This document shows, one piece after another, positions 751 to 36,701 of a stretch of 56,476 bases of DNA. Below the pieces are notes generated by a model. It searched no databases and was not told the DNA's origin. It saw only the letters and a program-made list of their open reading frames with translations. How positions within the stretch are numbered: the first letter of the stretch is position 1; every line of letters begins with the position of its first letter. Source of the stretch: Chrysochromulina tobinii (taxonomy: Eukaryota); NCBI GenBank assembly GCA_001275005.1, contig JWZX01002988.1, positions 1-56,476 of the forward strand, given 5' to 3'. The translations under genes and the position numbers were made by a program.

Positions 751-3323
751 ATGAATAACGTTTGGCAGAAGCATTTGACGGGGTGGGGAAAGCGTCACCC
801 AACCGATACCAACCCATTGAAGCCGCCGAGGCCAGTTCAGACGTCATCACCACTCGGGTCATCGTCGGCCAAGGCGGCGGGCAAAATTCCATTGTCTGTC
901 ACCGCACATAGCCCTGTCGTATACGATGCACAGACCGGCCGCCGGCACCTGCCGACGCCGCCGGGCTCGACAGGTGCGCGTACGATGACACCGTCTCGTG
1001 GTGAGTCGGGCTTGACCGCGCAAACGGGCATGGCTATGTCCGTCGTAGGCGATATCAGCACAGCGGGGGCAATTACGCCGCACCAGAAGCAGCGGCAGCA
1101 GCAGCTCGAGGCGCTGCTCTCGCTGCCCTCGCGCTTCGCGCGTGTTGGTGGTGGCTATGAGCGCGTGCCGTACGCTGCGGACGAGCTCCTTAATGCCGCC
1201 GTCGTCGCGGTGACGCGCGAGCGCGGCTACGGCGGCATGACGATCGACGACGACAAGGCCAAGCTGTGCGACGCTCTCGGTTTCGCGATCGCCGAGGCGG
1301 ACGAGCTTCGCGCTGCACTGGGCGAGCAGCCAGTGCTCGAGCAGATGCGCCAGCGCGTCCAACAAGCGCAACTCGACGCGGCGAGGCACGAGGAAGGGAT
1401 CGAGGTGGTGCGACTCGAGGCGACTGCGGCGCGTAAGGCTGCGAGCGAAGTGCAAAGCATCCAGGCCGACCTCGTGCAGGTGCAGCGGCAGCTCGCAAGC
1501 TGGGTGCTAACCGCGGTCGAGCACAGCCGCGCTCAGCGCAAGGCGGCCGACCCCAACTCGTCATCGAAGCCGACGCAGCTGTCCAACACCGCGCCGTCGG
1601 ACTCGGAGCTGCTTGGCGAGACGAGCCCTGGCTCGACCCACGAGGGCCCATTGTCCGTGCAGGCGAGCCCGGGTCCAACGTCCGTGCAGCAGCAGCAGCA
1701 GCAGCAGGCGCAGTACACGGAGAGCCTTCTCGAGTCTCTCGCCTACTTTTATGCGTCGCGCGCGCAGCTGAAGCAGCTGGTGACGGGCATGCGTGCGTGG
1801 CAGGCGTGCGCGGCGCTCCATCGGCGAGATCAGGCGGCGGTGCGCTTTGCCGAGATGCTGATTGTCTCTGATGGCCCTACTGATGATCACCGATGATCAA
1901 TGACTGCTCCCCTCATCAGGTGCGCTTCGCCGAGATGCGCGCGCTCTCGTCGGCGACCATGTCCCTCCAAGCGGCCGCCCAAAATCACGCGCTCGTCGAT
2001 CGTGGCGTGCGTCGCTTTGCGCGCACCCAAGCTCAGCGTGCCTTCCACAATTGGGTTTCGTTTGTGACCAATCGTGCGCTCACGCAGCACACGCAAGTGC
2101 TCGCGGCACAGCACGCGTCCGTGCAGGCGGCGAAACGTGCGGTGGGCAGCTTGAGGGTGAAGCCCCCCCAGGACGACCAGCCCGAGTCGTCGTCTGCTCC
2201 CGAAGAGGAGTTGCCTGTGAATTCACAGTTGAACCACGGCGCGGCTGCAACCTCCTCCGCGCACGTGGCGGCGTGCGCTCCTGCGGCGCGCACACAGCCG
2301 CCCTTTTCGTTCACGGGCAGTGCTCTAGCCTCCTCCCCGAGGGGGGCGAGCTGCTCCACCGCGGGGACCACCGCGGGCATGTCGGAGGATGCCGTTCGAT
2401 GGATGGCAGCGGCGGCGACCGCGGCAGCCGCCCTAGGCGACGTGGTCGCGCAGTTCGGACGTTACACGGGTGGTGACACCGCGCGGTCATCCTCAGATCC
2501 CGACGCGACCCCCGCTCCGCTGAGTGCAACGCAGCGGGCCCAGTTTGATCGCACTTGCGAGCGCGAGATGCCCGAGTGGCTTCGCGCCGCGGCCGATGCC
2601 GCCTCACTCATCAGCGACGCGGCCGAGCGCCTACAGTACGGCTCTTCACACCCCGCTTCACACCCCGCCTCCCGCTCGGGCTCGCGCCCGAGCTCACGTT
2701 GCGCTGCCGAGCCGACGAGCACGCCAAAAGGCCGCATCGCCATCATCAATGAGCGATCCAGTTGGTTCGGCTCCAGCCTCTCTGTCTCTCCCGTGGCGTC
2801 GGGCGACAAGATCTTCTACATGTGTGAACACCTCATGAAGGCCTGCGACAAGATGGGCAACCGGTGCGTGCTCGGCGGTGCCAACATCGCGTGTGGCTTC
2901 CTGCAGCGCGTGCCTGGGCTGTCTGGGGAGCTCTCTGGTGAAGCGGCGGCCGGCTCGGATGCACCGGCAGAGGGCGGCAGCGGCGCGGCTGGCCGCACTG
3001 CCGGCACGTTCGCCGCGCTCGACGCTTCCCACGCGACGGACGCCGGCGCGAGTGGGCAGCAGCACGCGAGCTGGGCTGACTTGGGCGACGGCACCTACCT
3101 GCTCCGATGGGCGGCCGACGCTCCCGGCGTCTTCGATGTCTTCGTCAAGATTGATGGGTTGCATGTGCTTGGCTCTCCCTCGAGGCTAGTGCTCGCGCCG
3201 CCGCTGCCGCCGCCCACGCGCCGAGCACGCCTATCCAGCAATTTAACTTCCGTGGTGGACTCACCTAGCGGCACGAAAGGGTCCGCGGAAACAGCCTCGA
3301 AAGTGGGCGGCACGGACAGCTGA
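751..3323 (+). CDS. Coiled-coil protein with C-terminal filamin/Ig-like repeat (exons 751-1839, 1920-3323; ~830 aa)
   Basis: ORFs 577..1896 and 1893..3323 join in frame via GT-AG intron 1840-1919. The C-terminus WADLGDGTYLLRW..PGVFDVFVKIDGLHVLGSP matches the filamin-repeat pattern. Start ATG 751 is inferred. Confidence 0.7.
1840..1919 (+). other. Spliceosomal intron, 80 nt, phase 0, flanked by 20-nt direct repeat
   Basis: GTGCGC...CCTCATCAG restores the frame. ggtgcgctttgccgagatgc (1839-1858) vs ggtgcgcttcgccgagatgc (1919-1938), 19/20 identical. Confidence 0.85.
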
Positions 3324-3658
3324 GCACGGAGATGAGGAATTGGGTGCGGCCTAGGTGCGGCCGTGGGAGAGACTTTGCGCACGCGCTCTTGTGTGTGCAA
3401 GGCCATGATTTCGAAGGCGAGTGAGGGCAGCGCAGTGTGCGGGCGCACAGACGAGACACGAGGGTGTGTGCAGTGTAGCGGAGATGAACGAAGTGGGCGC
3501 GGTGTGTGAGTCCTGGTCCTGCATGCAAGCTAGGGTGTCCGAAAGGCCGGCGGTAATGCGTAATCGAATAGGCGATGCGTGTGTTCTGTATGTCGTCATA
3601 TTATATTGATATATTGTCGTGTGTGCAAGCAGGGTGCGTCACGAAGAACTTACATGTA

Positions 3659-6495
3659 CTACGAGCACTGGGCTGCCCCGCCTTGCCCTTGGAGATAGAA
3701 GAAGTCGGGGCGCTCGTGACGCGCTGCCTCGAGCAGCTCGGGTGTCTCGAGCACCCGGAGCGCGTGCCAGCACACCCACGCATCGGTCGCGGCGTAGCGC
3801 AGCTGCGCCTCGCTCAGCGTGGGCATCTCCCAGTTGGACATCTGCAACGACTTGGGCTTGTGCATGCGCAGCCCCAGTAGCGCGGCGACGAAGCCGGCGA
3901 CGCCCGTGCAGAGGCAGCCAGCGGCGCGCGCACTTGGGGCCAGCTCGATGAGCGTTGCGCCGACCGAGGCCGCGCCCACGACGGCGCCCGTGGATGCGCC
4001 CACCACGGCGCCGACCGAGGTGGCGACCGGCGCGTCGGCCGATGCCGCCGGCGTCGCGGTCAATCGCGGTGGCGTGCAGCCCAGCCCACCCGCGCGCACA
4101 TCAGACTCGTGGAGCTGCGCTATCTCGCGCCCGATCTCCTGACCGACCAAGGTGAGTGTCGGGTCGCTGAGTAGCTCACGCAGCGGTGACGGCAGCGGCT
4201 GATGACGAACCAGCCGGAAGAGCACCGCGACCTCCGGCGTAGCGAGCTGAACGAGGCAGATTGGGTTGAGATTCTTCTCTCCGGCCCGGAAGGTCGGCTT
4301 CGTCTCGGTGTCGAAGCCGATCACTACACGCCCGTGGAGCTCGCCGCTACGCCGCAGCGCGGCGCACCACGTCGCCGCAGTCATCCTTTCTTCTTCGGAG
4401 CGCCCAGCGGAAGCTTTCGCAGGCGCCCATGCGCTGCCGTCGACCACAATGATCCTGACCGTGTCCTCATCGGGTGGGGGACGAAGGTGAAGGTCCGCGG
4501 GATGCAGCAGGCGGACAGGAGGGAGGGTCGTCGCGAGCGTCTGGAACTGTTCCGACTTGGCTCCTATCAAGGGCCACCGGCGCTTCTCATAGTCCGCCCA
4601 GCACGCCTCGCAGTAGAGCCGGCCGCTGGCCGGGTCGCGATGGCCTCGCCCCGGGTAGCCACACCACAGGCAGAGCCCATCCTCCACCAAGCAGTCGACT
4701 GACACGCCAACGGCCGCCACGTCGTCGACTGGTGCGGCAGGCCGTCCGTCGGCTGGTGCGGCAGGCCGTCCGGCGGCTGGCGCGGCAGGCCGTCCGTCGG
4801 CTGGCGCGGCAGACTTCTCCACCAGTTTCAAAAGGCCGACCCGATGCACGAGCTCGTCCGCGCTGATCGTCCTCGCCGCCGGAGGAGGAGGAGGGGGTGG
4901 GACCAGCCCCTGCATCGACAGCGCGTCTTCGACTCCGACGGCGTGTAAGGATTGCTCACGCCGCAGCCTGGAGGGGAAGACGCCTGCAGGGAAGCACCCC
5001 TGGAGGCAACACCGGGCAATGTGCTCCAGGGCGCTCAAGGCAGCCCGTGCCTGTATCTGCGCGAATGGGTGCAGATGACGCTCGCGCCATGCACTCGACA
5101 ACAGTTCGGCAAAGGGTACCCACGCGACACCTAGCAGGCTCGGGTCGTTCCCCGGATCTGGCGGCCGGCCGAGAGCAGCAGCCACGCGCTCGGCGAGGTC
5201 GGCGTCCTCGGCGTCGAGCTCATGCAAAAAGAGAGCGTACCTGATGAGGAGGCAATCAGCATGCACTCAGCATGCACTCAGCAGCATGGCATGCACCCAG
5301 CAGCAGCAATTCGACACGCAACCGCATACTTGCTCTGGCCCACCCAGACGACGGGCTTCGCGTGCTGCTCGATGCGCGCCCGAGCGCTCGCAGACAGCTG
5401 CCCGCCTGTCTCCTCCGAGCACTCCCTAGCAGCCACGTGGCGAGGGCTCTCGTGGATGGAGTCACGCTTGCCGCCGAGAAAGTTGTACCTCTTCTCCACG
5501 CGGCTGTTATTGGTACGCTCTTCGATCGCGAGTAGGGCATGGGGGTTGCCGCTCTTCTTGTGCCACAGCAGTGCGCCGGCCGCACAAAAGTGCTTCGCAT
5601 CGAGCTCGCGCAGCTGCCCATCTGCCGCTGTGTACGCATCCGGCGTCACCGCCTTACCCTTCCAGGGCCGCTCCGGTGACGACTGCCCTGGAGGCCGCAG
5701 GTCTGGTCGAGTCGGGTGTTTCAGGTGCTGCCACGTCGTCGGATGCGCAAACGCGCACGAAACGTTCGTGCACGTGTCGCCATTGCGGCAGCGCTTGTCG
5801 CCATACTTGCCGCACTTGACCCACTCAACCAGCGAGGTGGTCGGCAAGGCGCTCTGTCGGTTCGATCCGTTTACGTCGACACGGTCGATCGGGCCACGCG
5901 CAGACGATCGCTCGCTCGCCACCTCGCCCACGTAGCCGTCTGTCGGTCCGAAAGCCAGTGGCGCAATCGCGACGGGGCTCCCCCAGTAGGGGTGTGAGCT
6001 AAAGGGCTCTCCGTACGTGGCCGCCTTGTGTCGCGGCTCGCCGCTAGAGCTCCAGCCAACGTTGCGGCCCACAGGGCCATCAGACACGTGCATGGGCACT
6101 GGCAGTCGCTCCACGACAAACACCTGTGGTGCTACCACGTCGTGCCATTCGACAGGATCTCTAGGATCCGGATTGTACTGAATGCGCATGCGGACGTTAT
6201 GCAGCTTACCGAGGACGCGCATTTGGACCTGGCCACTGAGAACACGCTCACTGTCCTCCACCGGTTTCAGCGCCTGCAGCGCTGCCACACCATATGATGG
6301 CAGTGACGCAAGAAACGCAGCATCGATCAAGAAGCCTTGCAGCGCTGTGCCCATGTCGTTGGAAGCAAACACCTTCCGACCATCGATCTCCACACGCGAC
6401 GGCTTGCAGAGGTTCGGCCCGTACAGCATCTCACGAACGTTCCCACGGCCGGGCCGGTGCGGGGGCACGTTGCCAGGAGCCCCCGAGATCGACAT
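3659..6495 (-). CDS. CCCH zinc finger + Nudix hydrolase + DEDDy (WRN/EXD-like) 3'-5' exonuclease fusion (exons 6495-5330, 5240-3659; ~915 aa)
   Basis: C-x5-C-x4-C-x3-H (CRNGDTCTNVSCAFAH); Nudix box GGKRDSIHESPRHVAARECSEETG; CxxC..CxxC; ExoI IGFDTE; SNWE..LSEAQLRYAATDAW. The intron joins the two ORFs in frame (..GQSK|YALF..). The start could instead be ATG 6612. Confidence 0.8.
5241..5329 (-). other. Spliceosomal intron, 89 nt, phase 2
   Basis: GTATGC...GCTGATTGCCTCCTCATCAG with internal TGCATGCTGAG repeats. The downstream exon begins GTACGC, a weak echo of the donor. Confidence 0.85.
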
Positions 6496-10344: not shown

Positions 10345-12024
<1,680 letters not shown>

Positions 12025-18740: not shown

Positions 18741-20983
18741 TCAGAATCGTGACAGTCCGGCACTCAGAGGCGCCCCCTGGTCAGGCGGCATTTCGAGCTT
18801 GGAACTCACTGGCGGCGGTCGATGAGCACGAGAGTGGATGAGGAAGTCGGACGGCATGAGGACCGTCGGGTCGACCGATGTGGCCGTGCCGCCGGAGCTC
18901 GAGCTCACGCTGGCACCGTCGGCCAGCGAGTCCGCGACCGAGTCCCGACGGGGCAGCGTGACGGCACGCGTCGAGCATGAGGACGACGCAGCAGCGGCCA
19001 TGGGCGTGGCGCTCACGGATGCGGGTGAGACGGGTGGCGAGGCGTCCTCAAACGGCCGCGGTGTACCGACGACGCGCAGCGCGAGCCGGTTAATGGCAGC
19101 CTCGACGAGTGCGACCGCGAGCGACGCGTTGTGCTGGGCGATCTCGTCGGCGTGCTGCGCCTCGATGTGTACCGCCAGCGCAGCCTCGAGGCCTACAGCG
19201 AAGGATAGACCAAATCGAGTTTGGGCTGTCTGACGTGCGATGGAGGCGAGCTCGGCGGGCGTGTAGTCCTCGAGGAGGAGCGTCTTGGGGAAGCGTCGCA
19301 CTAGCCCCGGGTCCGCGCGCATCAGACCGTCCATTGCATCTCGATAGCCTGCCAGCACCACGCAGAGCGAGGTGCGATTCGACTCGACCTCCGTGAGCAG
19401 GGTCCGGATCGCCTCATCAGAGAATGCGTCGCCGCGCGCCTCGCCGTTGCGACTCGAGCCCGCGAGCGCGTACGCCTCGTCCAGGAAGAGGCAGCCGCCC
19501 AGGGCCGCCTGCACCATCTCCTTGACTTGCGGGCACGTCCACCCAATGTGTGTGCCCTTGAGCTCGAGAGCGTTGCGTTCGACAAAGACAGGGCGCTTGA
19601 GTAGCCCGTAGGCTCGGAGCGCCTTGAAGAGGAGCCGAGCTGCCGTCGTCTTGCCGGCGCCGGGGTTGCCGGTGAGCACGAGGTTGAGGCACGCCTCGAG
19701 GAGCCTCGGGTCGCCACCGCGCTCGACGAATTCCACCTTGGCGCGCAGCATCAAAATGGGGGCAATTAGCATGCAATCGGGGGGCAGCCAGCATGCAATC
19801 GGAGGCAATCAGCTCGTCACCTTGGCGCGCAGCTCGGCGAGGTACCGCTTGAGCGGTGCCATGCCGATCAAGCCAGCAACCTCCGCGTCCACCGCGGCCC
19901 GCTCGGCCAGCAGTGACTGCAACCCGTGGGCCTGCAGCCCCAGGTCCGCGGCGGAGAGGATGAGGGGCGCCGAGAGCAGCCGTGGGAGCGCGAGCCGCCC
20001 GTTGCGGTGCGTGACCGCACGCTGCACGAGCTCCGAGGCGAGGTGGGCGTTCCGCATCGCGAGCACCTGTGGGGAGTGAGAACGTCGTGGTGAGCACATG
20101 CATGCCTCGGGGGCTCTTGGGTTGTCCGCATCGCGAGTACATCACGCGACCACGTGGCGCTGAGGGCGATCTGCAGCTCGCAGGGGCCGAGGCCGTCGGC
20201 GAGGGCGTAGCCGCGCTCGACGAGCCGGCGCTGCGCGATCTCGGCGAGCTCCGCCGGCGCGTAGTTGGGCAGCTGGAGCCACACGGGCTCCACCTTGCGA
20301 AAGTGGCTCACCGCGCCGTGGAGTGCTTCGATTCGATCCGTCGGGCCGAGGAAGATGAAGCAGTGGTCGGGGTAGTTGGCGAGGACGGCATCGACTTTGC
20401 CGCGCATGCTCTCGATCTTGTCGAGCCCATCGATGATCACGCACGACACGTCGCGCCGCACGTCGAGCACCAGGCCCTCGAGCGTCGTGCGTGTGGAGAC
20501 CATCCCGCGCGCGACGCCGAGTGCGCGCAGCAGCTCGGTCAGCGTCTCGGCGGCGAGCTTCTTGCCAACACCGAGGTTGCCCGAGATGAGCACGTTACGC
20601 ACGCACGGCGGCTCGCCCAGCGCTGTGCGCGCGAGGCAGTCACGCCGCTGGCTAGCGCAGTACTCCTTGATCGGCACGAGGCCGATCAACCTCTCGAGCG
20701 CCATGTCGACGCGGGCGAGCTTGGCCGGGTCGGCGGCCTTGCAAAGGCGGGCGATCTGGCGATACTCAGGTGTGCGCAGCCGACTGGCGATCACGGTCGA
20801 CTCGTGCTCTCGCCGTGCAGCCAGCAAGCTGTTCGCTGCCGCCTTCCGGCGGACTGCCAGGCCCTCCTGTCGCACTGTGAAGCCGCGCCAGGCGGCCTGC
20901 GCTTTGGTCGCGGCGACCAAGGGCGTCGAATGCAAGGTTGTTGAAAATTCCGAACGGGCCCGCTTGAACGGGCGCTCCTCCAT
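18741..20983 (-). CDS. CbbX/CfxQ/SpoVK-family tandem AAA+ ATPase with N-terminal IQ-like motif (exons 20983-20141, 20066-19821, 19736-18741; ~694 aa)
   Basis: AATKAQAAWRG IQ-like motif. Module 1: LIGLVPIK..GNLGVGKKL. Module 2: LIGMAPLK..GNPGAGKTT, FLDEAY, VLAGY, DPGLVRRF, DYTPAEL. Two introns join three ORFs in frame. Confidence 0.85.
19737..19820 (-). other. Spliceosomal intron, 84 nt, phase 0, flanked by perfect 16-nt direct repeat
   Basis: GCTGCGCGCCAAG|GTG occurs at both junctions (+ strand 19734-19749 and 19818-19833). An in-frame TGA inside means splicing is required. Confidence 0.85.
20067..20140 (-). other. Spliceosomal intron, 74 nt, phase 0, flanked by 16-nt direct repeat
   Basis: The intron starts GTACTCGCGATGCGGA and the next exon starts GTGCTCGCGATGCGGA (15/16). 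It ends CTCCCCACAG. Confidence 0.85.
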
Positions 20984-21358: not shown

Positions 21359-22763
21359 TCACAGAAAAGTTGAGAGCAACTCATACAGCTCGTGAGGCGT
21401 CTCGTTGCCGTATCCGTACTTCGCTCGGCGCAGCAGCTGGTGCGTGGCGCACGAATGCGGGATGCACCGGAAGGTGCAGAACTCGCCTGTGGACTGGCGA
21501 CACTTGTACGTGTCGGCCGTCGTTCGCGCCGGTAAGGTCTCGTTGCATGCAATGGGGCCGCCGCGAGTCGTGAGCCGTTTCGTCATGGCGTACTTGCGCC
21601 GCACCTGACTCGAACAGTGGCAAACAGTGGCAACCCATATCAATCCGTGGCAGTCAGTGGCAGTCAGTGGCAGTCAGAGGCACTCCAAGGCACTCCGTCT
21701 AACTGGGCAGCACTCTTCACAGTACTCTTCACAGCACCTGTCTCGACCACAAGCGCTCTTGCTCGAAGGTGTCCTGGCCGAAGCTGTTAGGAAAAAGCCC
21801 CTCGTAAGGCTCGAACTCCCACGTGACCGCCGCGTTGCGCTCGGGCCCCGTGCGGATCTGGTGCCACCACCCTTCGGGGATGAAAAGCGCGTCGCCGCCG
21901 CGCAGATGCGCCACCATGCCGCCCTCGAGCTGCGCGAACATGGGCCACTTGTCGAGATCGACGCGCTCCGGGTTGACAGGCGATTCGCCATATCGGACGT
22001 GATAGTCCATGTACATCTTGTGCGACTGCGAGGGCGGGAACAAGTAGATCGACTTGGTGCCAAAGACCTGCAGCATCAGATTATCTTTTGTGTCAATGTG
22101 AAGTTCGCTCGTCGTGTTGCCCGAGCTCATCCACAGGCGCGTCTCATGCACCGACTCGTGCATCTCGGGGCACTGGAGCACCGCAGGCATCTCCACGTGT
22201 TTGCCAAGCTGCACGCCCGGGTCAGTCAGTGGCGCGATCAGGTACATTTTATCCTTGAACTCCGGTTTGAGGTAGTCGCGCAGGAAAGTGCAAAAATTGA
22301 TCGGCTCACGCGGACCGCGCGTGCTGTTCACAACCACCTTGCTCATTTCCACGTTCGCCAGCCATGGGCCGCCGCCGTGAGCGTCGTCGAGGTGGCACCG
22401 CCGTGATAGGAAGTCATCGGTCCACGCGACTCCACCAGTCGCGGCCGCGGCCGCACCAGCGAGCACGACGGGCTCAGCCGCAGCAACATGCTTCTCGTAG
22501 AAGACACGCGGGTCCGACATCGTCACGCGGGGCACATTGGGCATCGATTTCTGCTGCGACCCCATCCGCTCAAGGTGGCCCTTGCGACGGTGGCATTTTC
22601 GCGCCGTGAACGTCTCATCCGACGGCCAGCGCTCGCACTTGTGCACGTGGCACTCACGTTGGGTCTTGGCCGGCCGAAAGGATGGAAGCACGTCGCGGTA
22701 GCGCGTCTGGTCGCCGATCACAGGTGATAGCAAGAAGGGTAAGCAAAACACCCTGTGCAGCAT
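21359..22763 (-). CDS. Secretory-pathway JmjC/cupin-like (JMJD5/JMJD8/FIH-type) 2OG-Fe(II) oxygenase (exons 22763-21738, 21604-21359; ~423 aa)
   Basis: LWMSSG..SELHIDTKDNLMLQVFGTK..FPP; L.GGDALFIPEGWWHQI. Hydrophobic N-terminus after ATG 22763. Confidence 0.85.
21605..21737 (-). other. Spliceosomal intron, 133 nt, phase 0, flanked by 13-nt direct repeat
   Basis: TCGAGACAG|GTGC at the donor vs TCGAGTCAG|GTGC at the acceptor (12/13). The interior has CTGACTGCCA x3 and GAGTGCCT x2. Confidence 0.8.
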
Positions 22764-28400: not shown

Positions 28401-31400
28401 CCAACGCGCCGGCTGCGTACGCCTTGCCTTCAGCGTCGCCGTCCCGCACGAGCGCCACGAGCGGTGCGATCCCGCCCGCGGCCCGGATCGCGGCCTTGTT
28501 CGCATCGTCATCTGCCGCCAGAATCTGCAACGCGCCGGCTGCGTTCGCCTTGCCTTCAGCGTCGCCGTCGCGCACGAGCGTCACGAGCGCAACGATACCG
28601 CCCGCGGCCCGGATCGCGGCCTTGTTCACATCGTCATCTGCCGCCAGACCCCACAACGCGCTGGCTGCGTACGCCTTTCCTTTAGCGTCGCCGTCGCGCA
28701 TGAGCGACACGAGCTCGACATGGATGCTGCATCGATGCTGCAACGCGGCGGCTGCCCTCAAGTACATTTGCACGGTGGCGCCGGCAGAAAGGCCGCATTC
28801 CATGAGAGTGAAGCCCTCGTTAAGTGGCTTGCCGGCAAAGGTCAGAAAGAATTTGTCGCATGGAACGCCCGCCTTGCTTGCTGCTGCCGCTCGCAGGGCG
28901 CTGACGTTGTCAGTCGAGCGCATCGCATCCACGGTGAGAGTGCAGCGGTGTCGCACAAAGAGTTGGAAGGGCTGGCTTGAAGGGGCAGGTTGAGTAGGCG
29001 TCGGCATCACGTTGCCGAGGAGCCGGGCATGTGATGGTAAATCATCACCAAAGAGCGACCCCACCTTTGCAGGCTTGCTTGGTGTGATTGCATGCGGCAG
29101 CGTGGCGTCCTCCGCGGGCTCATTGTCGTCGACGGCGGCGGCAGCTGCGGACTTCTTCGAGGGGGGGCGGCGCGCCCGCCAGCCAGCGCCCTTCGCTCGA
29201 GAGAGCTGGGCGGCGAGCAGCGTGTCATCGGCAGTGGGATCGGCTTTGCTGGTCGGCACGGCTGCTGCGCCGCCAGCGGTCATCGAGGCGGCCGTGCCAT
29301 CACCGCTGCTTGACGGCTCATCCTCGGCGGCAGCGGCCTTTGGCCTCCGGGAGGGCGGCGCAGCACTGGGCATCATGAAGTTGAGATTGCCCAGCTTCCC
29401 TTTTAAGGCGGTGACTCTCTTTTTGGGCGCGTCTTCCTCGTCCTCGTTTGCGTCGTTAGCGTCGAGCGCGGGCGCGGGCTTCGGGAGCACGGGCGGCGGC
29501 ACGGGCGGTGGTGCGGACTGTGGCGCGGGCTTAGGGGGCGCGGGCGCGGCCACCGGCTTATCCTCAAACTCGCCGTCATCCTCGTCAACGCTCGGTGGCC
29601 GCGCCCGTCGGTCCTTCATCAAGCCCGCCATCGCCGCCAACGGCCCACCGGCCGCAGCGCCCACAGGCAGCTTTGGCTTTGGCGTTGGCGCCGGCGCCTC
29701 GTCCTCGTCGTCGCCGCCGGACAAGGCGCCCTTGGCTGCGGCTTGTGGCGCGGGCAGCGGTGCGGGCGGTGGCGCAGGCGCGGCGGCCTGCTTGAGTGCC
29801 GCCGCTGGCTTCGCAGGGCCGAACAGTCCGCCATCGCCGCCGTCTTCATCGTCGTCGCCGAACAGGCCGCCGCCGTCGGACATGGGCTTTGTAGCCGACG
29901 GCGTGGCGGGCAGCTTGGGAGGCGCGGCGGGAAGCTTCTTGGGCGCACCGCCAAAGAGCCCACCGTCATCGTCGTCGTCGTCGCCAAAGAGGCCGCCGCC
30001 GCCGCCCTTTTTGGCGGCAGGCTTGGGAAGAGGCGGCGCGGGCGGCGCCTTGGCCGCCGCTTTGGCCGCCGCTTTGGCGGCGGCCTTACCCGCCGAGGCG
30101 CCCAAAATGCCGCCATCATCGGCCACCGGCGTCTCCTCTTCCTCGTCCCAAACTCCAAAGAGAGAGGCATAGTCCACCTTCGTAGGCGGCCCCGAGGGCG
30201 CGGCGGCCGCGGCGGCAGTGGGCCCGGAGCCTGATTTGGAGCCAGGGGAGGCGGCGGCGGCGCCATACTCGCCAAAGAGCCCCCCTGCAAAGAGTGAGTC
30301 CCGCTTGCTACTCGCTCTTTGCAGGGGGTGAGTCAAGTGCGCCGGCAGGAGGTGGAGGCCACCCGCGCCGCGGCCGCCAGAGAAGCCGAAGGGGTCATCA
30401 TCCTCGTCCTCATCCTCGTCGTCGTCCTTGCATTGAGTGTCGGCCGACAGTTTCTCCAACAGGGCGACTGCGTGCGCCTTGGCATCAGCGTCAGAGCTCC
30501 CGTCGCGCACAAGCGCCACAAGCGGCTCGATGCCACGCGCCGCCCGGATCGCCGCCAGGTTGGCAGCACCGCCGTGCGCCAGATTCCACAACGCGGCGGT
30601 TGCGTTCACCTTGCCTTCAGCGTCGCCGTTGCGCACGAGCGCCACTAGCGGTTCGATGCCGCCCGTCGTCGCGATCGTCGCCACGTTGGCAGAGTGGGCG
30701 GCTGCCAGCCTCCACAACGCGCCGGCTGCCTTTGCCTTGCATTCAGTGTCGCCGTCACGGGCAAGCACCACGAGCGCTCCAATTACCACCTCCTGGTTGG
30801 CAGCGTTCCCATCCGCTAGACTCACCAACGCGCCGGCTGCACTCGACTTGCCTTGAGCGTCGCCGTCGCGCACGAGCGCCGCGAGCACTTCGATGCCGCC
30901 CGCTGCTGTGATCCCCGCTTTGTTGGCAGCGTCGAAGGCCGCCAGACTCCACAACGCTGTGGCTGCCTTCGCCTTGCCTTCAGCGTCGCCGCCGCGAGTG
31001 AGCGCTACGAGCGCCTCGACGCCGCCCGCCGCCGCAATCGCCTTCTTGTTGGCAGTGTTGCGCGCTAACTTCCACAACGCCTCTGCGGCTGCAGCCTGCT
31101 CCTCAGCGGTGCCATTTCCCAGCATCGCCACCAGCGGCGGGACGGCTCCGGCCGCGGCGAGTGCCTCACGCATGGGGTCTGCCACTTCCCCTGGCGGTGC
31201 GTTGGCGAGAGTGGCGATGCCACTCGCTGCGCGCGTCCGCACACCGATGGCGCGGGCTTGGAGCAACGCCACCAGCGCCACCGTGTCCGCGTCGGCCACT
31301 GCGCCCACCGCCGCGGCGGCGCTCAGAGGAAGAGCAACGGGCGGCGGTGGCTCGGCTGTCGGTATGATCGGCCACCAGCTCCGCCGGGCGGCGGGGGCGG

Positions 31401-31422
31401 AGTTCCGGGATGAACTCGTCAT
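25453..31422 (-). CDS. Mosaic ARM-repeat / FAM21-like / ubiquitin-like / WWE / PARP-catalytic protein (1989 aa)
   Basis: Three ARM blocks (AAGALWNLA..NKAAIRAAGGIEPLV); GGLFGDDDDDDGGLFG repeats; UBL (FLTFAGKPLNEGFTLMECGLSAGATVQM); WWE (WMWE..WQLFD..YDVDL..QKNVRTGFLR); PARP (LWHGT..NGFDR..YGVGSYFS..YS..RVLVG..SIFVL..AYTEFLL). Confidence 0.85.
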   Translation of the reverse strand: MTSSSRNSAPAARRSWWPIIPTAEPPPPVALPLSAAAAVGAVADADTVALVALLQARAIGVRTRAASGIATLANAPPGEVADPMREALAAAGAVPPLVAMLGNGTAEEQAAAAEALWKLARNTANKKAIAAAGGVEALVALTRGGDAEGKAKAATALWSLAAFDAANKAGITAAGGIEVLAALVRDGDAQGKSSAAGALVSLADGNAANQEVVIGALVVLARDGDTECKAKAAGALWRLAAAHSANVATIATTGGIEPLVALVRNGDAEGKVNATAALWNLAHGGAANLAAIRAARGIEPLVALVRDGSSDADAKAHAVALLEKLSADTQCKDDDEDEDEDDDPFGFSGGRGAGGLHLLPAHLTHPLQRASSKRDSLFAGGLFGEYGAAAASPGSKSGSGPTAAAAAAPSGPPTKVDYASLFGVWDEEEETPVADDGGILGASAGKAAAKAAAKAAAKAPPAPPLPKPAAKKGGGGGLFGDDDDDDGGLFGGAPKKLPAAPPKLPATPSATKPMSDGGGLFGDDDEDGGDGGLFGPAKPAAALKQAAAPAPPPAPLPAPQAAAKGALSGGDDEDEAPAPTPKPKLPVGAAAGGPLAAMAGLMKDRRARPPSVDEDDGEFEDKPVAAPAPPKPAPQSAPPPVPPPVLPKPAPALDANDANEDEEDAPKKRVTALKGKLGNLNFMMPSAAPPSRRPKAAAAEDEPSSSGDGTAASMTAGGAAAVPTSKADPTADDTLLAAQLSRAKGAGWRARRPPSKKSAAAAAVDDNEPAEDATLPHAITPSKPAKVGSLFGDDLPSHARLLGNVMPTPTQPAPSSQPFQLFVRHRCTLTVDAMRSTDNVSALRAAAASKAGVPCDKFFLTFAGKPLNEGFTLMECGLSAGATVQMYLRAAAALQHRCSIHVELVSLMRDGDAKGKAYAASALWGLAADDDVNKAAIRAAGGIVALVTLVRDGDAEGKANAAGALQILAADDDANKAAIRAAGGIAPLVALVRDGDAEGKAYAAGALGNLAADDDANKAAIRAAGGIEALVTLVREGDADGKASAAGALQNLAADDEANKAAIRAADGIEPLVTLVRDGDAEGKANAAGALWNLAADDDANKAAIRAAGGIEALVTLMREGDADGKASAAGALWGLSAGDDANKAAIRASGGIKALYTLSRDGDAAGKAKAAGALQNLVFVNDEDDNDNVVDYDSFFGASAGKAAAKAPPAPPLPKPAAKKGGGGGLFGDDDVDDGGLFGSAPKKLPTPPLPKPAAKKGGGGGLFGDDDDDDGGLFGSAPKKLPTPPLPKPAAKKGGGGGLFGDDDDDDGGLFGSAPKKLPAAPPKPPAAPPATKPMPPQPAPLSPVYGSNSTLHVVSTLAVVNTLAAAGYGTSTSSAPPPVPMGWPVDQPPMGSWPVDQPPMGWPVDQPPMGSWPVDQPPMGWPLDQPPMGWAVDPPMGYALADGLRTRHSTPAAVSTLAVVNTPVAAGSPRSPTVTSNLKAPSPSAAAVERAVADADPAALVALFQACAIGARTPVASGIAILADAPPDQSTDPMRGALAAAGALPPLVAMLRNGTAEEQAAAAEALWKLARNAAIKGAIVAAGALVPLAALVRDGDAQGKAKAATALWSLAAGDAANKAAIVAAGALVPLAALVRDGDALGKAKAASALQILAADDDTNKAETRPAHVWMWEDGAVGSGAWQLFDTASEETFRNQEASGVLRFRIEIRGQAYDVDLRLCTQKNVRTGFLRNLKRHALTDVDKDLPSLSHFPGSYGQAPPYWAALLPASQLPGSASTQGIGHAPYVLGEILSTPKGGMFTPKPMPIERHVALCDFVRSMMPPQLRSRLLTISHIRSEARFNLYQAARDALISRIGRAQLNEAWLWHGTSRDTLESIMANGFDRNMNERGMYGVGSYFSNQLKYSLNEEYAKPDNEGSQWVLLVRVLVGQSCVGKQGMRQPAKKPGGGAVLYESMVDSLQTPSIFVLSTGSDNHAYTEFLLRLEEEDV
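27102..27275 (-). repeat. 27/30-nt coding minisatellite (MG[S]WPVDQPP) x6-7
   Basis: Tandem ggctgatccacgggcca units within the PARP ORF. Confidence 0.9.
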
Positions 31423-31650
31423 AAACGAGGTTCTCCGCTTCGGAGCTAATAAACTGGCTATTCTAGTCGTGCTAGGAACTTTTGAAATGAATTTCCCATG
31501 GTGACCATTGCGTCGCCATTTTAAATTGAATTCACGTCGCTTTCTTCATACACTCTTCATACCGCGGGTAGCGAGTGCAGCGAACCACGACCCGTCCAGC
31601 CGTCCCTGCTGGCGCCTGGCGCCCACGACCCGACCCGACACTGGCATCCT

Positions 31651-33139
31651 ATGTCCGAGACTTCTCGCGTCGTCTGTGTCGGTGAACTTGCACGATCCGA
31701 GTTGGACGGCAAAGATCACCCGGACGACGAGCATGACTCACCTGCAGGCTCTGCACATGGCGCATGGCTGCGGAGTGCCGACCGTCACTTTCCTTCTGCT
31801 CGAGCATGGGACAATGCCTTGAGTGCGTCACTTTGCACGGCACTGGAGTCAGATGCTCGAATGATCAACGCCTCTCCCCAGTTGCCATCGACATTCTGGG
31901 TCGACGCAGCCAACATGGCGACACCTAGTTGTTCGCTCGAGCGCTTCGCATGCAACGTCCTCCAATTCCACACAACAGGCGGTGGCGTGCATGAATCAAC
32001 CGGCACGGTTACACCCGAAGATGGGTCCGCGATTCGCGGGGTGGAGTGGTGGGTCCAAGTACGCAGCAGCGAATCACCCAAGCCGTCCATCAACCTTCAT
32101 TTTGATGCCGATGAGGCCACGAAGAGACAGACTTGCGAGCATCTGCCGCCCTTTTTGTCGACGGTCACGTACCTAGGCTCGCACGGAGGGCCGACGGTCT
32201 TGCTTCCTGCCGTTGGTGATGCCCACGGGCGCGCCCTGCCCCCGATAAGCGACCATGGCGCGTTTATCAGCCACCCGGTGAGGCTGCAGCAGACTCAATC
32301 TCGGGCTCAATCTCGGGCCGCCAGGGCCTTCCAAATTCGGTCCCGAGCTCTCGCATGCACTCTCGCTGACGCTAGTGTGTTGCCGTGCGACGCGACGCGC
32401 GCGCGCGCGTTCGCAGATCGCCGGAAGGCACCTTGCCTTCGACGGCCGCCTCCTCCATGGCGCTCTGCACGACCTCGCCCTCCCCTCTCCCTTGCCGTAC
32501 ATTCGAGTGTCGGTACTGGTCAACATTTGGCATCGCCATCGCCCACTCGGTGTGTTTCGTCTACCAGCAGGCTTTGCCGCAGGGCTGTCCAATTCGCCTG
32601 ATGGGCTGTCCAATTCGCCTGATGGGCTGTCCAATTCGCCTGATGGGCTGTCCAATTCGCCTGATGGGCTGTCCAATTCGCCTGATGGGCTGTCCAATTC
32701 GCCTGATGGGCTGTCCAATTCGCCTGATGCGCTCGCCCCCCTCATCGGAGCGTCCCACGACGAGACGATCGTCACATGGGCACCCGTCCTTGCGGTCAGT
32801 GCCGGGCGCACCGAAGGCGATGGACATGGCGATGGAGCTTCCGAGGCTGACTGGATGTCGTGCCGTGTCGGCTATCTGCCTCTGACCCCAGCCATCGGGG
32901 CGGTGCCGGGCTGGCGGGAGCTCGCGACGAAACACGGGCTCGACATCGGCTTTCCTTTCCGCCACTTGCCAGTCCGCGTGCGCCATCTGCAGCACTCTAC
33001 AGGTATCCAGCGAAGCAGCCATATTCCGTTCCGGTACATGCGGGAGGTAGAGCTGGAGTGCGATCTGTGGTCGGACGGAGAGAGCAGCCAGCGCAAGGAC
33101 TGGTGGGCCATCGCCGTCTTTTTGGCGGAGCTCGGGTAA
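31651..33139 (+). CDS. Putative 2OG-Fe(II) oxygenase (exons 31651-32277, 32417-33139; ~449 aa)
   Basis: EWWVQVR..NLHFDADE..LSTVTYL..GGPT..GRHLAFDGRLLHG..RVSVLVNIW, giving the HxD...H...R pattern. The intron restores the frame. Confidence 0.7.
32278..32416 (+). other. Spliceosomal intron, 139 nt, phase 0, no flanking repeat
   Basis: GTGAGG...GCTGAC (branch-like)...TTCGCAG; joins HP|IAGRHLAFDG in frame. Confidence 0.8.
32582..32728 (+). repeat. Perfect 21-nt coding minisatellite x7 (GLSNSPD)
   Basis: gggctgtccaattcgcctgat repeated 7 times without mismatch. Confidence 0.97.
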
Positions 33140-33196
33140 GACGACGGACGACGCAGGGTATGAATATTGTTGGATTTATGTTCGCGAACCGACTGA

Positions 33197-33432
33197 TTGA
33201 CCCAAAGGGGTAGGGGGAGATTATTCCTTCTGGATTCACACACTCTACCTCCCCATCACCTGCTGATTTTGAACACTCAGTGACGTGATTCTTTGACCCA
33301 AAGGCATGCCCAAAGCCCGGGGGCAAAGGGGCGGAGGGGGCCGGGAGGCGTATTCCTTCTGGATTCACACACTCGATCCCCACATGGATCCCCACCACCT
33401 GATATTTTGAACTCAGTGCATGACTCAGTGAC
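33197..33432. repeat. Intergenic two-copy structured duplication
   Basis: ttgacccaaagg ... tattccttctggattcacacactc (33222-33245 = 33351-33374) ... cacctg..attttgaa..ctcagtg appears twice in the same order. Confidence 0.85.
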
Positions 33433-33909
33433 CCCCGCCCCCGCGTACGAAAGGGCTAACCGCCTTACCGGGTACCGTACGCCTACCATGACGCCTACGC
33501 CTCAATGCTACGCCTCACTACGCGCCGGGTACGCTCCCAGTCACGGCGGAGCGGCATGCGGAGCGGGCGCGGGGGCGGGGCATGGCGCCTTGGCGGGGGC
33601 GGGGCCGGGGGCGACGGACGACGAGCGCGCGCGCCCCACGTCTAGCAGTCGTAGTCTAGTCGAGTCTCTAGAATATTTTCGCATTTCGGCTGATTACATG
33701 TTTTTAACACTGCCCATCCACATATTACACGTTACACCTGTTTGGGAATTGAAGGTACTACCAAAGCCGTATAAACGGCGCCCCCCGGACCTCTTCGCGA
33801 CGGCCGCCCACGTCGCACCGTTCCCAAACGAAACGGCTGCGAGACTCGCCGGCCGAGACGCGAGAGACCACCGACCGATTTCGAACGCGTGAAACATCAT
33901 GCGCCCTCT

Positions 33910-36701
33910 TCACCATGGCAACCACATTGGTGACGCGGGGGGACTTTCTTCGTGGACAGGACTAACAAGCAGCACGAGCGAGACGCAGGAGACGCTCAGC
34001 CAGATCATGAGCGCGCACCGGATGATGTGCCAGTCGAGGCTCTCGAAGTAGATCTGCACCCGGCTGGGCGGCGGCATGGTCTGCAGATCCGAGAAGGCGG
34101 CGGTGTTGCGCAAACGCGCTTCGAAGCTGGGCACCACCTCCTTGCGCGACGGCTCAAGCTTCTTGAAATAGCACTTGAGCTCGTCGAGCGAGATGGAATT
34201 CGAGTTATCAGTGTCGATCAGGCGGAAGAGCTCGTCGCCCTCCATCTTGAACTCCGGCCACAGCTCGCACAGCTCGGGATGTTGTGTGATGGCGCTGGTG
34301 AGCTCCTCCTTGGTCACCGTTTGGTCACCGTCGACATCGGCGAGTTTGAAGAGGGTCTCGGCGAGCCGTTCGGTCGAGAAGAGGTCGTCGGTCCTGGACG
34401 TATGTTCGTCCAAGTAGTTTCGGTCACCAGAGAGGAGGCAGCAAGTGCGAGTGGGAGTGGCCGGCTGGGACTGTCCCAGCCGAGGCCTGCCGCCCCCTGC
34501 CATCAACTGCTCCTGCCGATACGACGCGCCGCCCGGCCGCATGCGTTTGTCGAGCTCGTTTCGCGAAATCATCTGATATTTGACCACGAGACCTTGGCAT
34601 GAGCACATGAGCACCTCCTCCGCCTCCCCTCGGGTGCCCGCTGTGAGGATCGCCTTCGAAAAGTAGCGCTCGGCCGACGCAGACGGCGTACCGCCGGGAC
34701 TGGCGGAGGCAGTGGGGACGCTGGTCGCGGGTTCGATGAGGCCGATCGGGTCGAACCCGCGCCCAGCAATGCCTCCACCGGGTAAGCGTGACGGATCACT
34801 GGAAGCGCGGCGAGGAGAAGTGGACGATCGCGGCGACAGCGACGGCTGAGAGCGCGACGAGACGGCATATGCGATGCGCCTGTCCCCATCCTCGAGGCAG
34901 CCCGAGACGGCGGTAGACCCATCCGAGAACAGACGCACCTGCGAGGCAATCAGAGGTCATCAGAGGCAATCAGAGCTCATCAGAGGCACTCAGGGCTCAT
35001 CAGAGGTCATCAGACGCACCTGCGAGGCAATCAGAGGTCATCATCAGACGCACCTGCGAGGCAATCAGAGGTCATCTGAGGTCATCAGAGGGTCATCAGC
35101 GGGTCATCAGAGGGTCATCAGAGGTCATCAGACGTACCTCAGAGGTCATCAGAGGTCATCAGACGTACCTCCGAGGCAGCTTTGCCGCGGTTGTCCTCGG
35201 CCTTCATGTCTGAGTAGCTCGTGTCGCACATGATGATATCCACACGCGGCCCGGTGCCCGCGGCCGCCGCCGCCGACTGGATCACCGTTGGGCAGTTGCC
35301 GTGCGGAGTGTGGCCGACGACGAGCCGGCAGATGCCGTTGGCGGCGAGCTTGGCCTCGAGGGCCGGCGGCAGCGGCGCGGGCATGCCGCTGTCGTCGAGG
35401 TGGCGGCCGAGTACGACAGAGGGCAGAGTATTGGGCACACAGTAATCCATGAGCCCATGACCTCCGCGCCGATTTTCCTCATACGCGCTCGCATAGCTCG
35501 TCTGATCTCGCCTGATCTCCCACTCCGGGCGCGCCTCCCACTCCGCGATCTGCTCGGTCTTCCACCGATGCAACTGGCGCACCCACATGCGCACGTCTTC
35601 GTACTGCCGGTTCGGTGGCACGAAGCCGAAGCATTCCTTGTGGCCGTCGCGGTAGTTGCCCTGGAGGCCGCCATGGACGAACAGGGTGTCCCCGAGGACG
35701 ACAGCGAGCTCCCCGAGACGCACCTGATGTGGGAGGCAATCACGTGTCATCATGTGTCATCATCAGCCGGATGGACGAGAGTGAGCTCCCCGAGACGCAC
35801 CAGCTCGCGCATCACGCCGCCTCGGGCGACGCTGTCGACGAAAGAGCTCACGACGGCGCTTTCGCTCACCTGGAGGGGTTGGGTGGGTGTGAATTGGAGG
35901 GGTTGGGTGGGTGGGTAAGGGCGAACACACGGCTGTGAATGGCGTCTCTCGGCATTCTCCCACGTGCGTGTTTGGCACGCCCAGTACCAGGCGCACCTTT
36001 GACACGTCGATCTTGTGGATGACGGACAACTCGGCACGTCGCCGCTCAAACTCGCCGTCGGCGCCCATGGTCTCCTTGAGCATCCAGCGCACCCGTGCCG
36101 CGGGCGTGTTCGCCACGCGGAGCGCCGCCTCGTCCACCTCCTCCGGCTGGATCCCGCGCGATTTGGCGATCGTCGCGCGTAGGAAGCCCTCCGGGCTCAC
36201 CCTCTTCGCCGGCGCTACCCAATACGGCCCGGGCACGCCGTGCAGCTCGGCGAGCTGCGAGGGCGCGAGCTCGGAGGTGAAGCGCATCTTGTTGATGTCG
36301 CGGTTACCCAGGATGATGTGCACGGCGGACGGGTACTTTTTCTTGAGCCGCACCAGTGTTGTCGCCACGCGGATCGAACCACCGACCTTGCCGCCCTTGT
36401 CCACCGAGTCGCCGCCGAAGACAAAGTGCCAGCCCGGCTGCAGCTTTATGTCGGCGCTGCCGTCTTCGTGGAGTGACAGCAGTTCAAGCACTGGGCTCAT
36501 TTCGATGCACTTGATAAAATACTCCCAGTTTCCCTCGACGTCGGTCATGAAGGCGACGTTCGGCATGTTCGTCATCAGAACTTTCTTGCGGTGATGACAA
36601 ACGTAGTAGGCGAGCGCGAGCAAGAACCCGAAGACCACGCTGCACACGCACGCCACTGGGTCGTTCCCTGCGGAGGCAACGAACGCCTCCACACCGGGCA
36701 T
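33910..36701 (-). CDS. Membrane-anchored calcineurin-like metallophosphoesterase (GNRD variant) with EF-hand pair (exons 36701-35997, 35869-35801, 35723-35169, 34938-33910; ~785 aa)
   Basis: FMTDVEGN, FGGDSVDKG, ILGNRDINK, LFVHGG, VVGHTPHG, MCDTSYSD. EF-hands DVDGDQTVTKEE and DTDNSNSISLDE. Hydrophobic segments at both ends. Three introns join four ORFs in frame. Confidence 0.8.
34939..35168 (-). other. Spliceosomal intron, 230 nt, phase 0, 19-nt direct repeat, interior made of ~10-nt repeats
   Basis: TGCCTCGGAG|GTACGTCTG vs TGCCTCGCAG|GTGCGTCTG (17/19). The interior is (TGATGACCTC)n with extra copies of both junctions. Confidence 0.85.
35724..35800 (-). other. Spliceosomal intron, 77 nt, phase 0, 29-nt direct repeat
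   Basis: GGTGCGTCTCGGGGAGCTCACTCTCGTCC vs GGTGCGTCTCGGGGAGCTCGCTGTCGTCC (27/29). It ends TGATTGCCTCCCACATCAG. Confidence 0.87.
35870..35996 (-). other. Spliceosomal intron, 127 nt, phase 0
   Basis: AAG|GTGCGC...CCCCTCCAG|GTGAGC; duplicated C/A-rich tract CACCCACCCAACCCCTCCA; frame restored. Confidence 0.8.

What the first reader, a model, noticed from the sequence alone, without database searches (positions are those of the whole stretch)
1839..35801. Introns built from exon duplications: 6 of 10 are flanked by 13-29 nt direct repeats that supply their splice sites
Seen: introns 1840-1919 (19/20), 19737-19820 (16/16), 20067-20140 (15/16), 21605-21737 (12/13), 34939-35168 (17/19) and 35724-35800 (27/29), in four unrelated genes, each carry a copy of neighbouring exon sequence across the junction. 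The copy gives the GT donor in all six, and also the acceptor AG in three. Removing one repeat copy plus the filler rebuilds the intronless gene. Established: Introners take splice sites from short fixed-length TSDs or TIRs, and some recent intron gains show short flanking repeats attributed to double-strand-break repair. Here the repeats are long and variable in length, and I see no TIRs. Inference: a high-rate, ongoing intron-creating process by staggered-break or templated duplication plus filler synthesis. This is the best candidate for a novel system in the window.
Basis: partly seen in the sequence, partly recalled or inferred. Interest (0 to 1): 0.92.

Follow-up and report, generated by a model that had tools for sequence, protein, structure and literature searches.

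The report
Introns made by copying intron pieces
In a freshwater alga, about half of the sampled introns that carry either of two shared sequence motifs begin with an 11-55-base copy of the next exon, and close relatives lack some of them, so they are likely new introns made when part of an existing intron is copied into a gene and the landing site is duplicated.

Summary
Confirmed, and much wider than the window. Two junctions are spliced in RNA contigs; four have no RNA junction from me. The organism is a freshwater Chrysochromulina. In metagenome loci, 65 of 128 introns ending in one shared motif (53 under stricter filters) and 18 of 31 ending in a second start with an in-register copy of the next exon (null under 1%); a mirror form ends in a copy of the previous exon. 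Copies are 11-55 nt, with microhomology at the free junction. The filler is not random: it is a truncated piece of two genome-wide intron families, without TIRs. Orthologues (57-81% identity) lack these introns. At 3 of 6 sites outside the window, alleles 92-98.5% identical lack them; none of the six window introns was found absent. Best reading: self-templated intron gain by microhomology template switching with long, variable target duplication; reverse transcription of intron RNA is the main rival. A published Introner screen scored C. tobinii zero. This scan noted the same footprint earlier on another piece of this genome.

The parts
1840..1919 (+). Intron, 5'-type: starts with a copy of the next exon (copies 1839-1858 and 1919-1938, 19/20); family-1 10-mer filler and acceptor end
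   Evidence: reading frame restored by removal; no RNA junction tested
19737..19820 (-). Intron, 3'-type (mirror): ends with a copy of the previous exon (copies 19818-19833 and 19734-19749, 16/16); family-1 filler
   Evidence: 11 orthologous ORFs read across gap-free
20067..20140 (-). Intron, 5'-type (copies 20125-20140 and 20051-20066, 15/16); family-2 core at 20087-20105
   Evidence: 11 orthologous ORFs read across gap-free
21605..21737 (-). Intron, repeat straddles the junction (copies 21734-21746 and 21601-21613, 12/13); family-1 10-mers; weakest and probably oldest case
   Evidence: annotated protein P0181 joins here; a divergent gene copy (P0174, P0187) also has it
34939..35168 (-). Stacked intron: four units, each starting with a 9-nt copy of the next exon; end repeats 35160-35178 and 34930-34948 (17/19); family-1 10-mer array
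   Evidence: sequence; spliced in RNA run X14; gap-free in 42 of 55 spanning homologues
35724..35800 (-). Intron, 5'-type (copies 35773-35801 and 35696-35724, 27/29); family-1 acceptor end
   Evidence: skipped by length in RNA run X13; gap-free in 53 of 56 spanning homologues
5241..5329 (-). Family-1 intron with only a 3-nt repeat (internal control)
35870..35996 (-). Control intron: no family motif, 5-nt repeat
32278..32416 (+). Control intron (predicted): no family motif, no repeat
37711..38122 (+). Control intron (predicted): no family motif, 3-nt repeat
1036..3323 (+). Host gene 1: unknown protein, weak Filamin match (E 0.001, below cut-off)
18741..20983 (-). Host gene 2: AAA+ ATPase (SpoVK-like), two introns
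21359..22763 (-). Host gene 3: JmjC/Cupin_8 protein
33910..36701 (-). Host gene 4: calcineurin-like phosphoesterase with EF hands, three introns

Best explanation
These are likely newly gained introns: in each, an exon site is duplicated (12-29 matching bases here, 11-55 in the wider sample) and a truncated piece of one of two genome-wide intron families sits between the copies, most likely because a broken or stalled DNA end switched template onto another intron. Inferred steps: a 3' end at a splice-like site (G|GTGC or AG|GT) anneals to the matching junction of an existing family intron. It copies part of that intron from the splice site inward, then rejoins the target through 1-7 nt of microhomology some 11-55 nt back, duplicating that stretch. 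Copying from the acceptor gives the 5'-type (family supplies branch region and AG, the duplication supplies GT). Copying from the donor gives the mirror 3'-type (family supplies the donor body, the duplication supplies AG). Selection would keep only products that are spliceable (about 60-95 nt, sense strand) or in frame. Each new intron would be a new template and a new target, which would explain the high copy number and the stacked units. Shown: repeats, register, shared fillers, both polarities, microhomology, absence in relatives. Inferred: template switching, a DNA template, the enzymes (polymerase theta-like or NHEJ/MMBIR-like), and selection as the filter.
For: Family-1 acceptor anchors: 65 of 128 score 10 or more, against 0.96% of 16,256 swapped pairs and 0.4% of 1,706 pairs sharing the first 4 nt; only 3 of 128 when the exon is read from base 41. 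Strict set 53 of 128: copies 11-55 nt, 23 perfect, 55 mismatches in 1,383 nt. Family-2 anchors, not used to pick loci: 18 of 31 against 0.75%. Donor-anchored mirror test: 9 of 28 against 0.13%. Anchor-free scan of 639 kb: 33 5'-type, 21 3'-type and 22 straddling candidates with filler. Microhomology at the free junction averages 2.5 nt (38 of 53 testable) against 1.27 +/- 0.19; 0 of 1,000 permutations reach it. The same donor-side stretch of about 30-55 nt recurs at unlinked loci (L016, L041, L049, L059, L071), mostly before a copy of the upstream exon, so the template is not local. Absence: AAA orthologues at 57-73% read across both junctions (11 of the 17 I examined; contigs up to 14 and 26 kb). 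ProRS site in L007: absent in relatives at 64-81%, one on a 217-kb contig, and in 3 alleles at about 98.5% that still read into an older downstream intron; present in 8. L072 stack: absent in 6 proteins at 92.5-92.8% on 7.5-18 kb contigs. No intron-bearing allele without the exon copy was seen at any site checked. Core copies without splice sites in coding-looking sequence repeat in multiples of 3 (57, 45, 45, 45; 51, 51, 51); those inside introns do not (47, 47, 59, 37, 37).
Against: Fillers are almost only in the sense orientation (69 sense against 3 antisense among clearly scored clusters; 56 scored weakly, 3 were ambiguous and 67 were skipped). The window has one strict motif hit outside introns in 56 kb. 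A DNA template that is blind to transcription should leave neutral intergenic copies, so some coupling to transcription or RNA is likely. Some stacked units copy the end of the intron next to them (L082, L129) or duplicate whole units (L117, L093, L072), which is local slippage. Copy length and filler length are negatively correlated (rho -0.66), as replacement models also predict. None of the six window introns is absent from a close allele. A long direct repeat also allows precise loss, so an intronless allele alone does not give polarity. No donor template was traced for any single event. No enzyme was looked for.
Confidence: 0.5

Rival explanations
1. Retroposition of intron RNA. A LINE- or Penelope-type reverse transcriptase, or a repair polymerase, primes at a nick and copies an excised or nascent intron RNA from its 3' end. 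It truncates, and a second nick 11-55 nt away leaves a variable target-site duplication.
For: In the 5'-type the fixed end is exactly the intron's 3' end, the duplication starts at that junction, its length varies, and the truncated end shows microhomology. These are the hallmarks of target-primed reverse transcription (recalled, not from a call). Fillers are sense-oriented and genic. Non-LTR-derived introners exist (PMC12130899).
Against: The mirror 3'-type is nearly as common (21 against 33) and cannot be primed on a sense RNA. Copies of the central core lack both ends. No poly(A) tail is seen. No reverse-transcriptase partner could be sought without the genome.
Confidence: 0.27
2. Turnover at old intron positions. 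Local slippage duplicates the intron's 3' end plus the exon start and a microhomology deletion removes the first unit; or partial conversion by spliced cDNA overwrites one intron end with exon sequence. No new intron position arises.
For: 28 anchors have an acceptor directly upstream of the copy; some new units match the end of the previous intron. Unit and 10-mer numbers differ between strains. Copy and filler lengths trade off. The six window introns are fixed in close strains, and 21605 is shared with a divergent gene copy.
Against: Orthologues lack the positions. Alleles at 92-98.5% lack three sites. ProRS alleles fall in a stepwise series: neither insert, intron 1 only (inferred for P0500), both; the both-insert alleles group at 94/91 support. 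Many new units end in a pristine consensus not found next to them (L122, L075, L105, L099). 44 of the 65 hits have no acceptor upstream.
Confidence: 0.15
3. A classical non-autonomous DNA transposon (MITE-like Introner) with a fixed short TSD, whose flanks were later extended by secondary duplications.
For: Shared families; one splice site carried and one co-opted, as in Polarella classes 4, 5, 6, 8 and 10 (bioRxiv 10.1101/2020.10.14.339549) and in marine Chrysochromulina (4-bp TSD, no TIR; PMC9860276). Many family-1 introns have only a 3-6 nt match.
Against: No TIRs. No fixed TSD length and no shared second end. C. tobinii scored 0 Introner families in PMC12130899 supplementary file 7. No allele with a short-TSD precursor of a long-copy intron was seen.
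Confidence: 0.06
4. Chance similarity, or intron boundaries picked because of the repeats.
For: Two window cases (21605, 34939) are near the null and partly reflect splice consensus.
Against: About 50% against under 1% in tests anchored without knowing the donor; RNA and homologue support for the junctions.
Confidence: 0.02

Closest known systems
Introners that carry one splice site and take the other from the TSD: Symbiodinium and Polarella classes 4/5/6/8/10 (bioRxiv 10.1101/2020.10.14.339549, parts 1-2 of 4 read); marine Chrysochromulina sp. TARA MAG family (PMC9860276, passages and supplement rows)
   Same: Shared intron families; in the dinoflagellate classes the element gives the acceptor and the 5' end of the duplication gives the donor; the marine Chrysochromulina family has no TIR and carries its donor, like the 3'-type here; strong phase-0 and genic bias.
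   Different: Those TSDs are fixed at 4 or 8 nt and the elements are alike end to end. Here the duplication is 11-55 nt and variable, only one end is shared, both polarities occur, the free junction shows microhomology and units stack.
Intron gain by staggered double-strand-break repair in Daphnia pulex (PMC4202315, passages; review PMC3443670, passages)
   Same: New intron flanked by a direct repeat of the adjacent exon end; repeated events at one site; polymorphism among populations.
   Different: Daphnia: 33 such repeats of 4-12 bp among 90 new introns, with short AT-rich shared motifs. Here the repeats are 11-55 nt, occur in about half of the sampled family introns, and the filler belongs to two high-copy families.
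Non-LTR retrotransposon insertion (target-primed reverse transcription); non-LTR-derived introners (PMC12130899, parts 1-2 of 7 read; mechanism details recalled)
   Same: Variable TSD starting at a fixed 3' end; 5' truncation with microhomology.
   Different: A mirror-image class of similar frequency; no poly(A) tail seen; no autonomous partner identified.
Tandem duplications and templated inserts from end-joining of breaks with overhangs (PMC5730883, passages)
   Same: Variable duplications; microhomology; occasional templated inserts; repeated rounds at one site.
   Different: The inserts there are described as templated in cis and make no introns; here the template is often a distant intron.
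Intron gain by tandem genomic duplication of AGGT-containing exon (PMC3443670, passages)
   Same: The duplicated exon sequence supplies splice sites.
   Different: There the whole intron is duplicated exon; here most of it is family filler.
Replitrons (PMC10288648, passages)
   Same: Variable-length TSDs and fuzzy ends in Chlamydomonas; one locus reported in C. tobinii.
   Different: Kilobase elements with terminal direct repeats and an HUH transposase; no link to introns; nothing like them seen here.

Membership tests
Introner (Gozashti 2022/2025 definition) | Many introns at unlinked loci share sequence | tested here: met
   128 family-1 anchors; 89 family-2 core hits in 682 kb; depth about 17,000
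Introner (Gozashti 2022/2025 definition) | Similarity extends to near both splice boundaries | tested here: not met
   One end is locus-specific exon copy; consensus only over the last 20-25 nt plus 10-mers; C. tobinii scored 0 families
Introner (Gozashti 2022/2025 definition) | One splice site carried, the other co-opted from the target duplication | tested here: met
Introner (Gozashti 2022/2025 definition) | New positions, absent from relatives | tested here: met
   (4 of 6 window introns by orthologue ORFs; 3 of 6 outside sites by close alleles); read from intron-unaware ORFs, not from DNA alignments
MITE / TIR DNA-transposon Introner | Terminal inverted repeats | tested here: not met
   0 pairs of 8 nt or more in six regions; folding z -0.7 to 1.7
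MITE / TIR DNA-transposon Introner | Fixed-length short TSD (3-9 nt) | tested here: not met
   11-55 nt, continuous
Non-LTR retroposon (TPRT) | Variable TSD abutting a fixed 3' end; truncated 5' end with microhomology | tested here: met
   5'-type only; feature list recalled
Non-LTR retroposon (TPRT) | Single polarity of fixed end relative to the RNA | tested here: not met
   donor-anchored mirror class, 9 of 28 and 21 candidates
Non-LTR retroposon (TPRT) | Autonomous RT element sharing the 3' end | not testable with these tools
   no whole genome held
DSB-repair intron gain (Daphnia type) | Direct repeat of the adjacent exon end at the opposite intron end | tested here: met
DSB-repair intron gain (Daphnia type) | Short repeats (4-12 bp) and no high-copy filler family | tested here: not met
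DSB-repair intron gain (Daphnia type) | Dependence on end-joining enzymes | not testable with these tools
   needs genetics
Tandem genomic duplication intron gain | Intron consists wholly of duplicated exon | tested here: not met
   filler of 28-144 nt follows the copy

The most novel reading that the evidence does not exclude
A transposase-free, self-amplifying intron factory. Ordinary spliceosomal introns act as templates for one another at transcribed loci: the repair machinery copies either end of an intron into an exon, a 10-55 nt target duplication supplies the missing splice site, and every product becomes a new template and target. It has built thousands of introns, perhaps a third of all, in one algal lineage, and it is invisible to Introner screens because no two copies match end to end.
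Probability: 0.35. Interest if true: 0.93.

Novelty: new variant of a known kind. Interest (0 to 1): 0.8.

Why it matters
How new spliceosomal introns arise on a large scale is a long-standing question, and mass gain is currently credited to transposon-derived Introners (PMC12130899). This lineage shows mass gain with a different footprint that joins the Introner and break-repair models, and the standard screen scored it zero, so similar systems may be missed elsewhere. The long duplications date each event and record its junctions. Sites that differ between near-identical lineages, in a culturable alga with a small genome, make the mechanism directly testable.

Tried and rejected
No whole genome was held and metagenome records could not be opened by handle, so no true genome-wide count or RT/transposase search was made. 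The motif had 0 hits in viral contigs. The genome-contig scan gave only bacterial homologues at 27-36%. Overlapping locus pairs from different samples (6 compared, 2 aligned in full) showed no intron presence/absence, only filler copy-number change. A first microhomology control was inflated by same-locus matches and was redone. The coding-strand classifier is strict (56% of random positions scored 'noncoding-like'), so it supports the strand bias but not a count of intergenic copies. Rfam on 8 loci gave one chance match at E 0.27, so I rejected snoRNA- and hammerhead-like readings. Hairpin/TIR readings were rejected. Long members of the 1840-gene cluster looked like intronless alleles but begin inside or after the intron. 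Phases called for the wider set (29/16/20) are noisy and not used. RNA junctions for 1840, 19737, 20067 and 21605 remain open. Two tree scripts failed on slicing errors.

Full report
Question and organism. The window is eukaryotic, 64% GC. Its intronless MetAP2 ORF clusters at 90% with proteins named Chrysochromulina tobinii and C. parva. Runs that hold the DNA are mixed-culture and freshwater samples. I treat it as freshwater Chrysochromulina.

The observation. All six introns are GT..AG at the given coordinates, and the repeat counts are exactly as reported. Scores of 10-23 exceed all 90 swapped pairs (maximum 9); the four other introns I called score 1-5. All six are phase 0, and removal restores the frame. 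In RNA, X14 contig 14 joins across 34939-35168, and X13 contig 6 is short by 204 nt, the sum of 35724-35800 and 35870-35996. The joint table of that call showed 15 rows and hid 78. The other four junctions have no RNA support from me. Annotated proteins P0181 and P0213 join at 21605, 34939 and 35724 as predicted. No inverted repeats were found and folding is unremarkable.

The filler is a family. The bin holding the 34939 intron has DNA depth about 17,000 against about 50. Family 1 is a degenerate 10-mer array (TGATGACCTC, TGATTGCCTC and kin) ending in GATTGCCTCCCTCATCAG. Family 2 has the core GCATGCAAGTGCTCACCAC followed by a pyrimidine run and CAG. Seven of the ten window introns carry a family motif, including all six with repeats; the three without a motif have no repeat.

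Wider sample. One metagenome scan for the family-1 end returned 134 distinct loci, 888 kb, from 3 of 64 parts of the collection. I dropped 12 loci as off-GC or single chance matches; 156 anchors reduced to 128 distinct ones, two of them from the window. I did not verify that every locus is the same species. The test needs no donor call: does the sequence after the AG recur 45-290 nt upstream? It does in 65 of 128 (score 10 or more), against 0.96% of 16,256 swapped pairs and 0.4% of 1,706 pairs with the same first four bases; only 3 of 128 when starting at exon base 41. Some of the 65 are repeats inside filler. A strict set (GT/GC start, no filler in the exon part, filler of 25 nt or more) keeps 53, with copies of 11-55 nt, 23 of them perfect. 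For later counts I dropped 12 more redundant loci and trimmed one. Family-2 acceptors, which played no part in picking loci, give 18 of 31 against 0.75%. Donor-anchored introns give the mirror form in 9 of 28 against 0.13%. An anchor-free scan of 53 sequences (639 kb) found 215 unique-copy repeats; 76 have filler and splice sites in register (33 5'-type, 21 3'-type, 22 straddling), 61 of them not holding the selection motif. A few of the 76 are spurious on inspection, and some of the 23 filler-bearing repeats without register look real. One per 8-10 kb, the same density as in the window, would mean several thousand in a 59-Mb genome with about one intron per gene (PMC4580454, passages). This is a rough figure from motif-selected loci.

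Junction anatomy. At the free junction the copy overlaps the filler by 2.5 nt on average (38 of 53 testable), against 1.27 in swaps; 0 of 1,000 permutations reach it. Unit length clusters at 62-95 nt, and copy and filler lengths trade off (rho -0.66). The same donor-side stretch recurs at unlinked loci, mostly followed by a copy of the upstream exon. Fillers are little closer to other introns of their own locus (mean common ending 18.8 against 15.8 nt; the two long matches are 47 and 28 nt). Twenty-eight anchors have an acceptor directly upstream of a copy: some are whole-unit duplicates, some copy the end of the neighbouring intron, and others have different copy lengths and fillers with a pristine end not present locally. 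Fillers lie in the sense orientation, 69 to 3, among clusters that scored clearly; 56 scored weakly, 3 were ambiguous and 67 were skipped.

Gain or turnover. I could not fetch orthologous DNA, so I used ORFs from metagenome contigs. These gene calls ignore introns: they read into them. Whether a contig is DNA is not recorded; I infer it from length or from a retained intron. AAA gene: of 120 listed hits I examined 17, and 11 (57-73% identity) cross both junctions without a gap, two on 14- and 26-kb contigs. Phosphoesterase: 53 of 56 and 42 of 55 spanning homologues (up to 56% identity) are gap-free at 35724 and 34939. Among close strains, no listed cluster member lacks any of the six window introns (6-14 informative members per site, at most 15 listed per cluster). 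Outside the window, six sites could be read. ProRS intron 1 is absent from 3 alleles and present in 8. The first unit of the stacked second site is absent from 4 and present in 13. The three alleles lacking both still read into the older intron there and lie on 2.8-4.8 kb contigs. They form their own haplogroup; the alleles with the extra unit group at 94/91 support, short of the star threshold. The L072 stack is absent from 6 proteins at 92.5-92.8% identity on 7.5-18 kb contigs. L025 (15 of 15), L031 (7 of 7) and L018 (8 of 8, with one or two units) are fixed. Three of ten look-ups were not in the collection. I picked ProRS because it is conserved, and followed the lead that appeared there. 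So 3 of 12 sites show absence in close lineages, and no site shows the intron without its exon copy.

Mechanism. That these are insertions with a target duplication I put at about 0.83. How they insert is less sure. Both polarities, central copies lacking both ends, microhomology and non-local fillers fit template switching onto another intron's DNA (0.5). The fixed acceptor end, sense orientation and lack of intergenic copies fit reverse transcription of intron RNA (0.27). Local slippage clearly acts on stacks but does not explain empty orthologous sites (0.15). All enzyme names are inference.

What is known. Introners with one carried and one co-opted splice site have fixed 4-8 nt TSDs (bioRxiv 10.1101/2020.10.14.339549, parts 1-2 of 4; its supplements are closed). 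C. tobinii scored 0 families in PMC12130899 supplementary file 7 (12 of 14 files searched; main text parts 1-2 of 7). Daphnia's new introns have 4-12 bp repeats (PMC4202315, passages). End-joining of staggered breaks gives variable duplications with microhomology (PMC5730883, passages). Also read as passages: PMC3443670, PMC10288648, PMC11282704, PMC8469720. Ten searches found no description of this footprint; the library lacks most subscription papers. It is unchecked and not independent support, but it pointed me to the dinoflagellate paper.

Verdict. A real, genome-scale and apparently undescribed variant of intron gain, lying between Introners and break-repair gains. Interest 0.8.

Noticed in passing
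window 33216-33420: Intergenic duplicated motif; DNA depth up to about 13,000 at 33402 in run X2, so another high-copy repeat, unrelated to the intron fillers.
   Followed up: no
window 32582-32733: In-frame 21-nt unit repeated 7.2 times inside a predicted exon, 99% identical: a recent coding expansion.
   Followed up: no
window 23250-23340: 10-mer array with a 17-nt direct repeat but no splice sites in register; loosely like family-1 filler, opposite in sense to the long ORF 23024-24067.
   Followed up: partly
window 37717-37956: The 412-nt intron 37711-38122 holds an internal 27-nt direct repeat 213 nt apart.
   Followed up: no
window 22097-22382: Run X2 shows a second, divergent haplotype or paralogue over the JmjC gene at about half depth; proteins P0174 and P0187 are a divergent copy that also has the 21605 intron.
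   Followed up: partly
window 1920-3323: Close strains have exon-2 ORFs of 1,007-1,300 aa that match only the first 280 or so of the window's 467 aa; the window's gene may be truncated or rearranged.
   Followed up: no
window 33910-36701: The phosphoesterase has bacterial homologues (Myxococcota, Bacteriovoracaceae and others) at 27-36%, a possible bacterial origin.
   Followed up: partly
L007:14536-15430 (+); L036 (minus strand, about 7000-7330): Family-2 core repeated in units of 45-57 nt without clear splice sites, all multiples of 3: the same process may also add in-frame coding repeats.
   Followed up: partly
L018:6000-6080: A 41/42 duplication whose family end overlaps the target by one base; splicing at the obvious GT/AG would change length by one: a possibly imperfect insertion.
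   Followed up: no
anchor set: 19 of 128 family-1 acceptors are followed by GC, and 11 of the 65 copies start with GC, which suggests frequent GC-AG introns.
   Followed up: no
window 25453-31422: Intronless 1,989-aa ORF with several arrays of 126-nt (42-aa, ARM-like by eye) repeats and near-identical 111-nt repeats.
   Followed up: no
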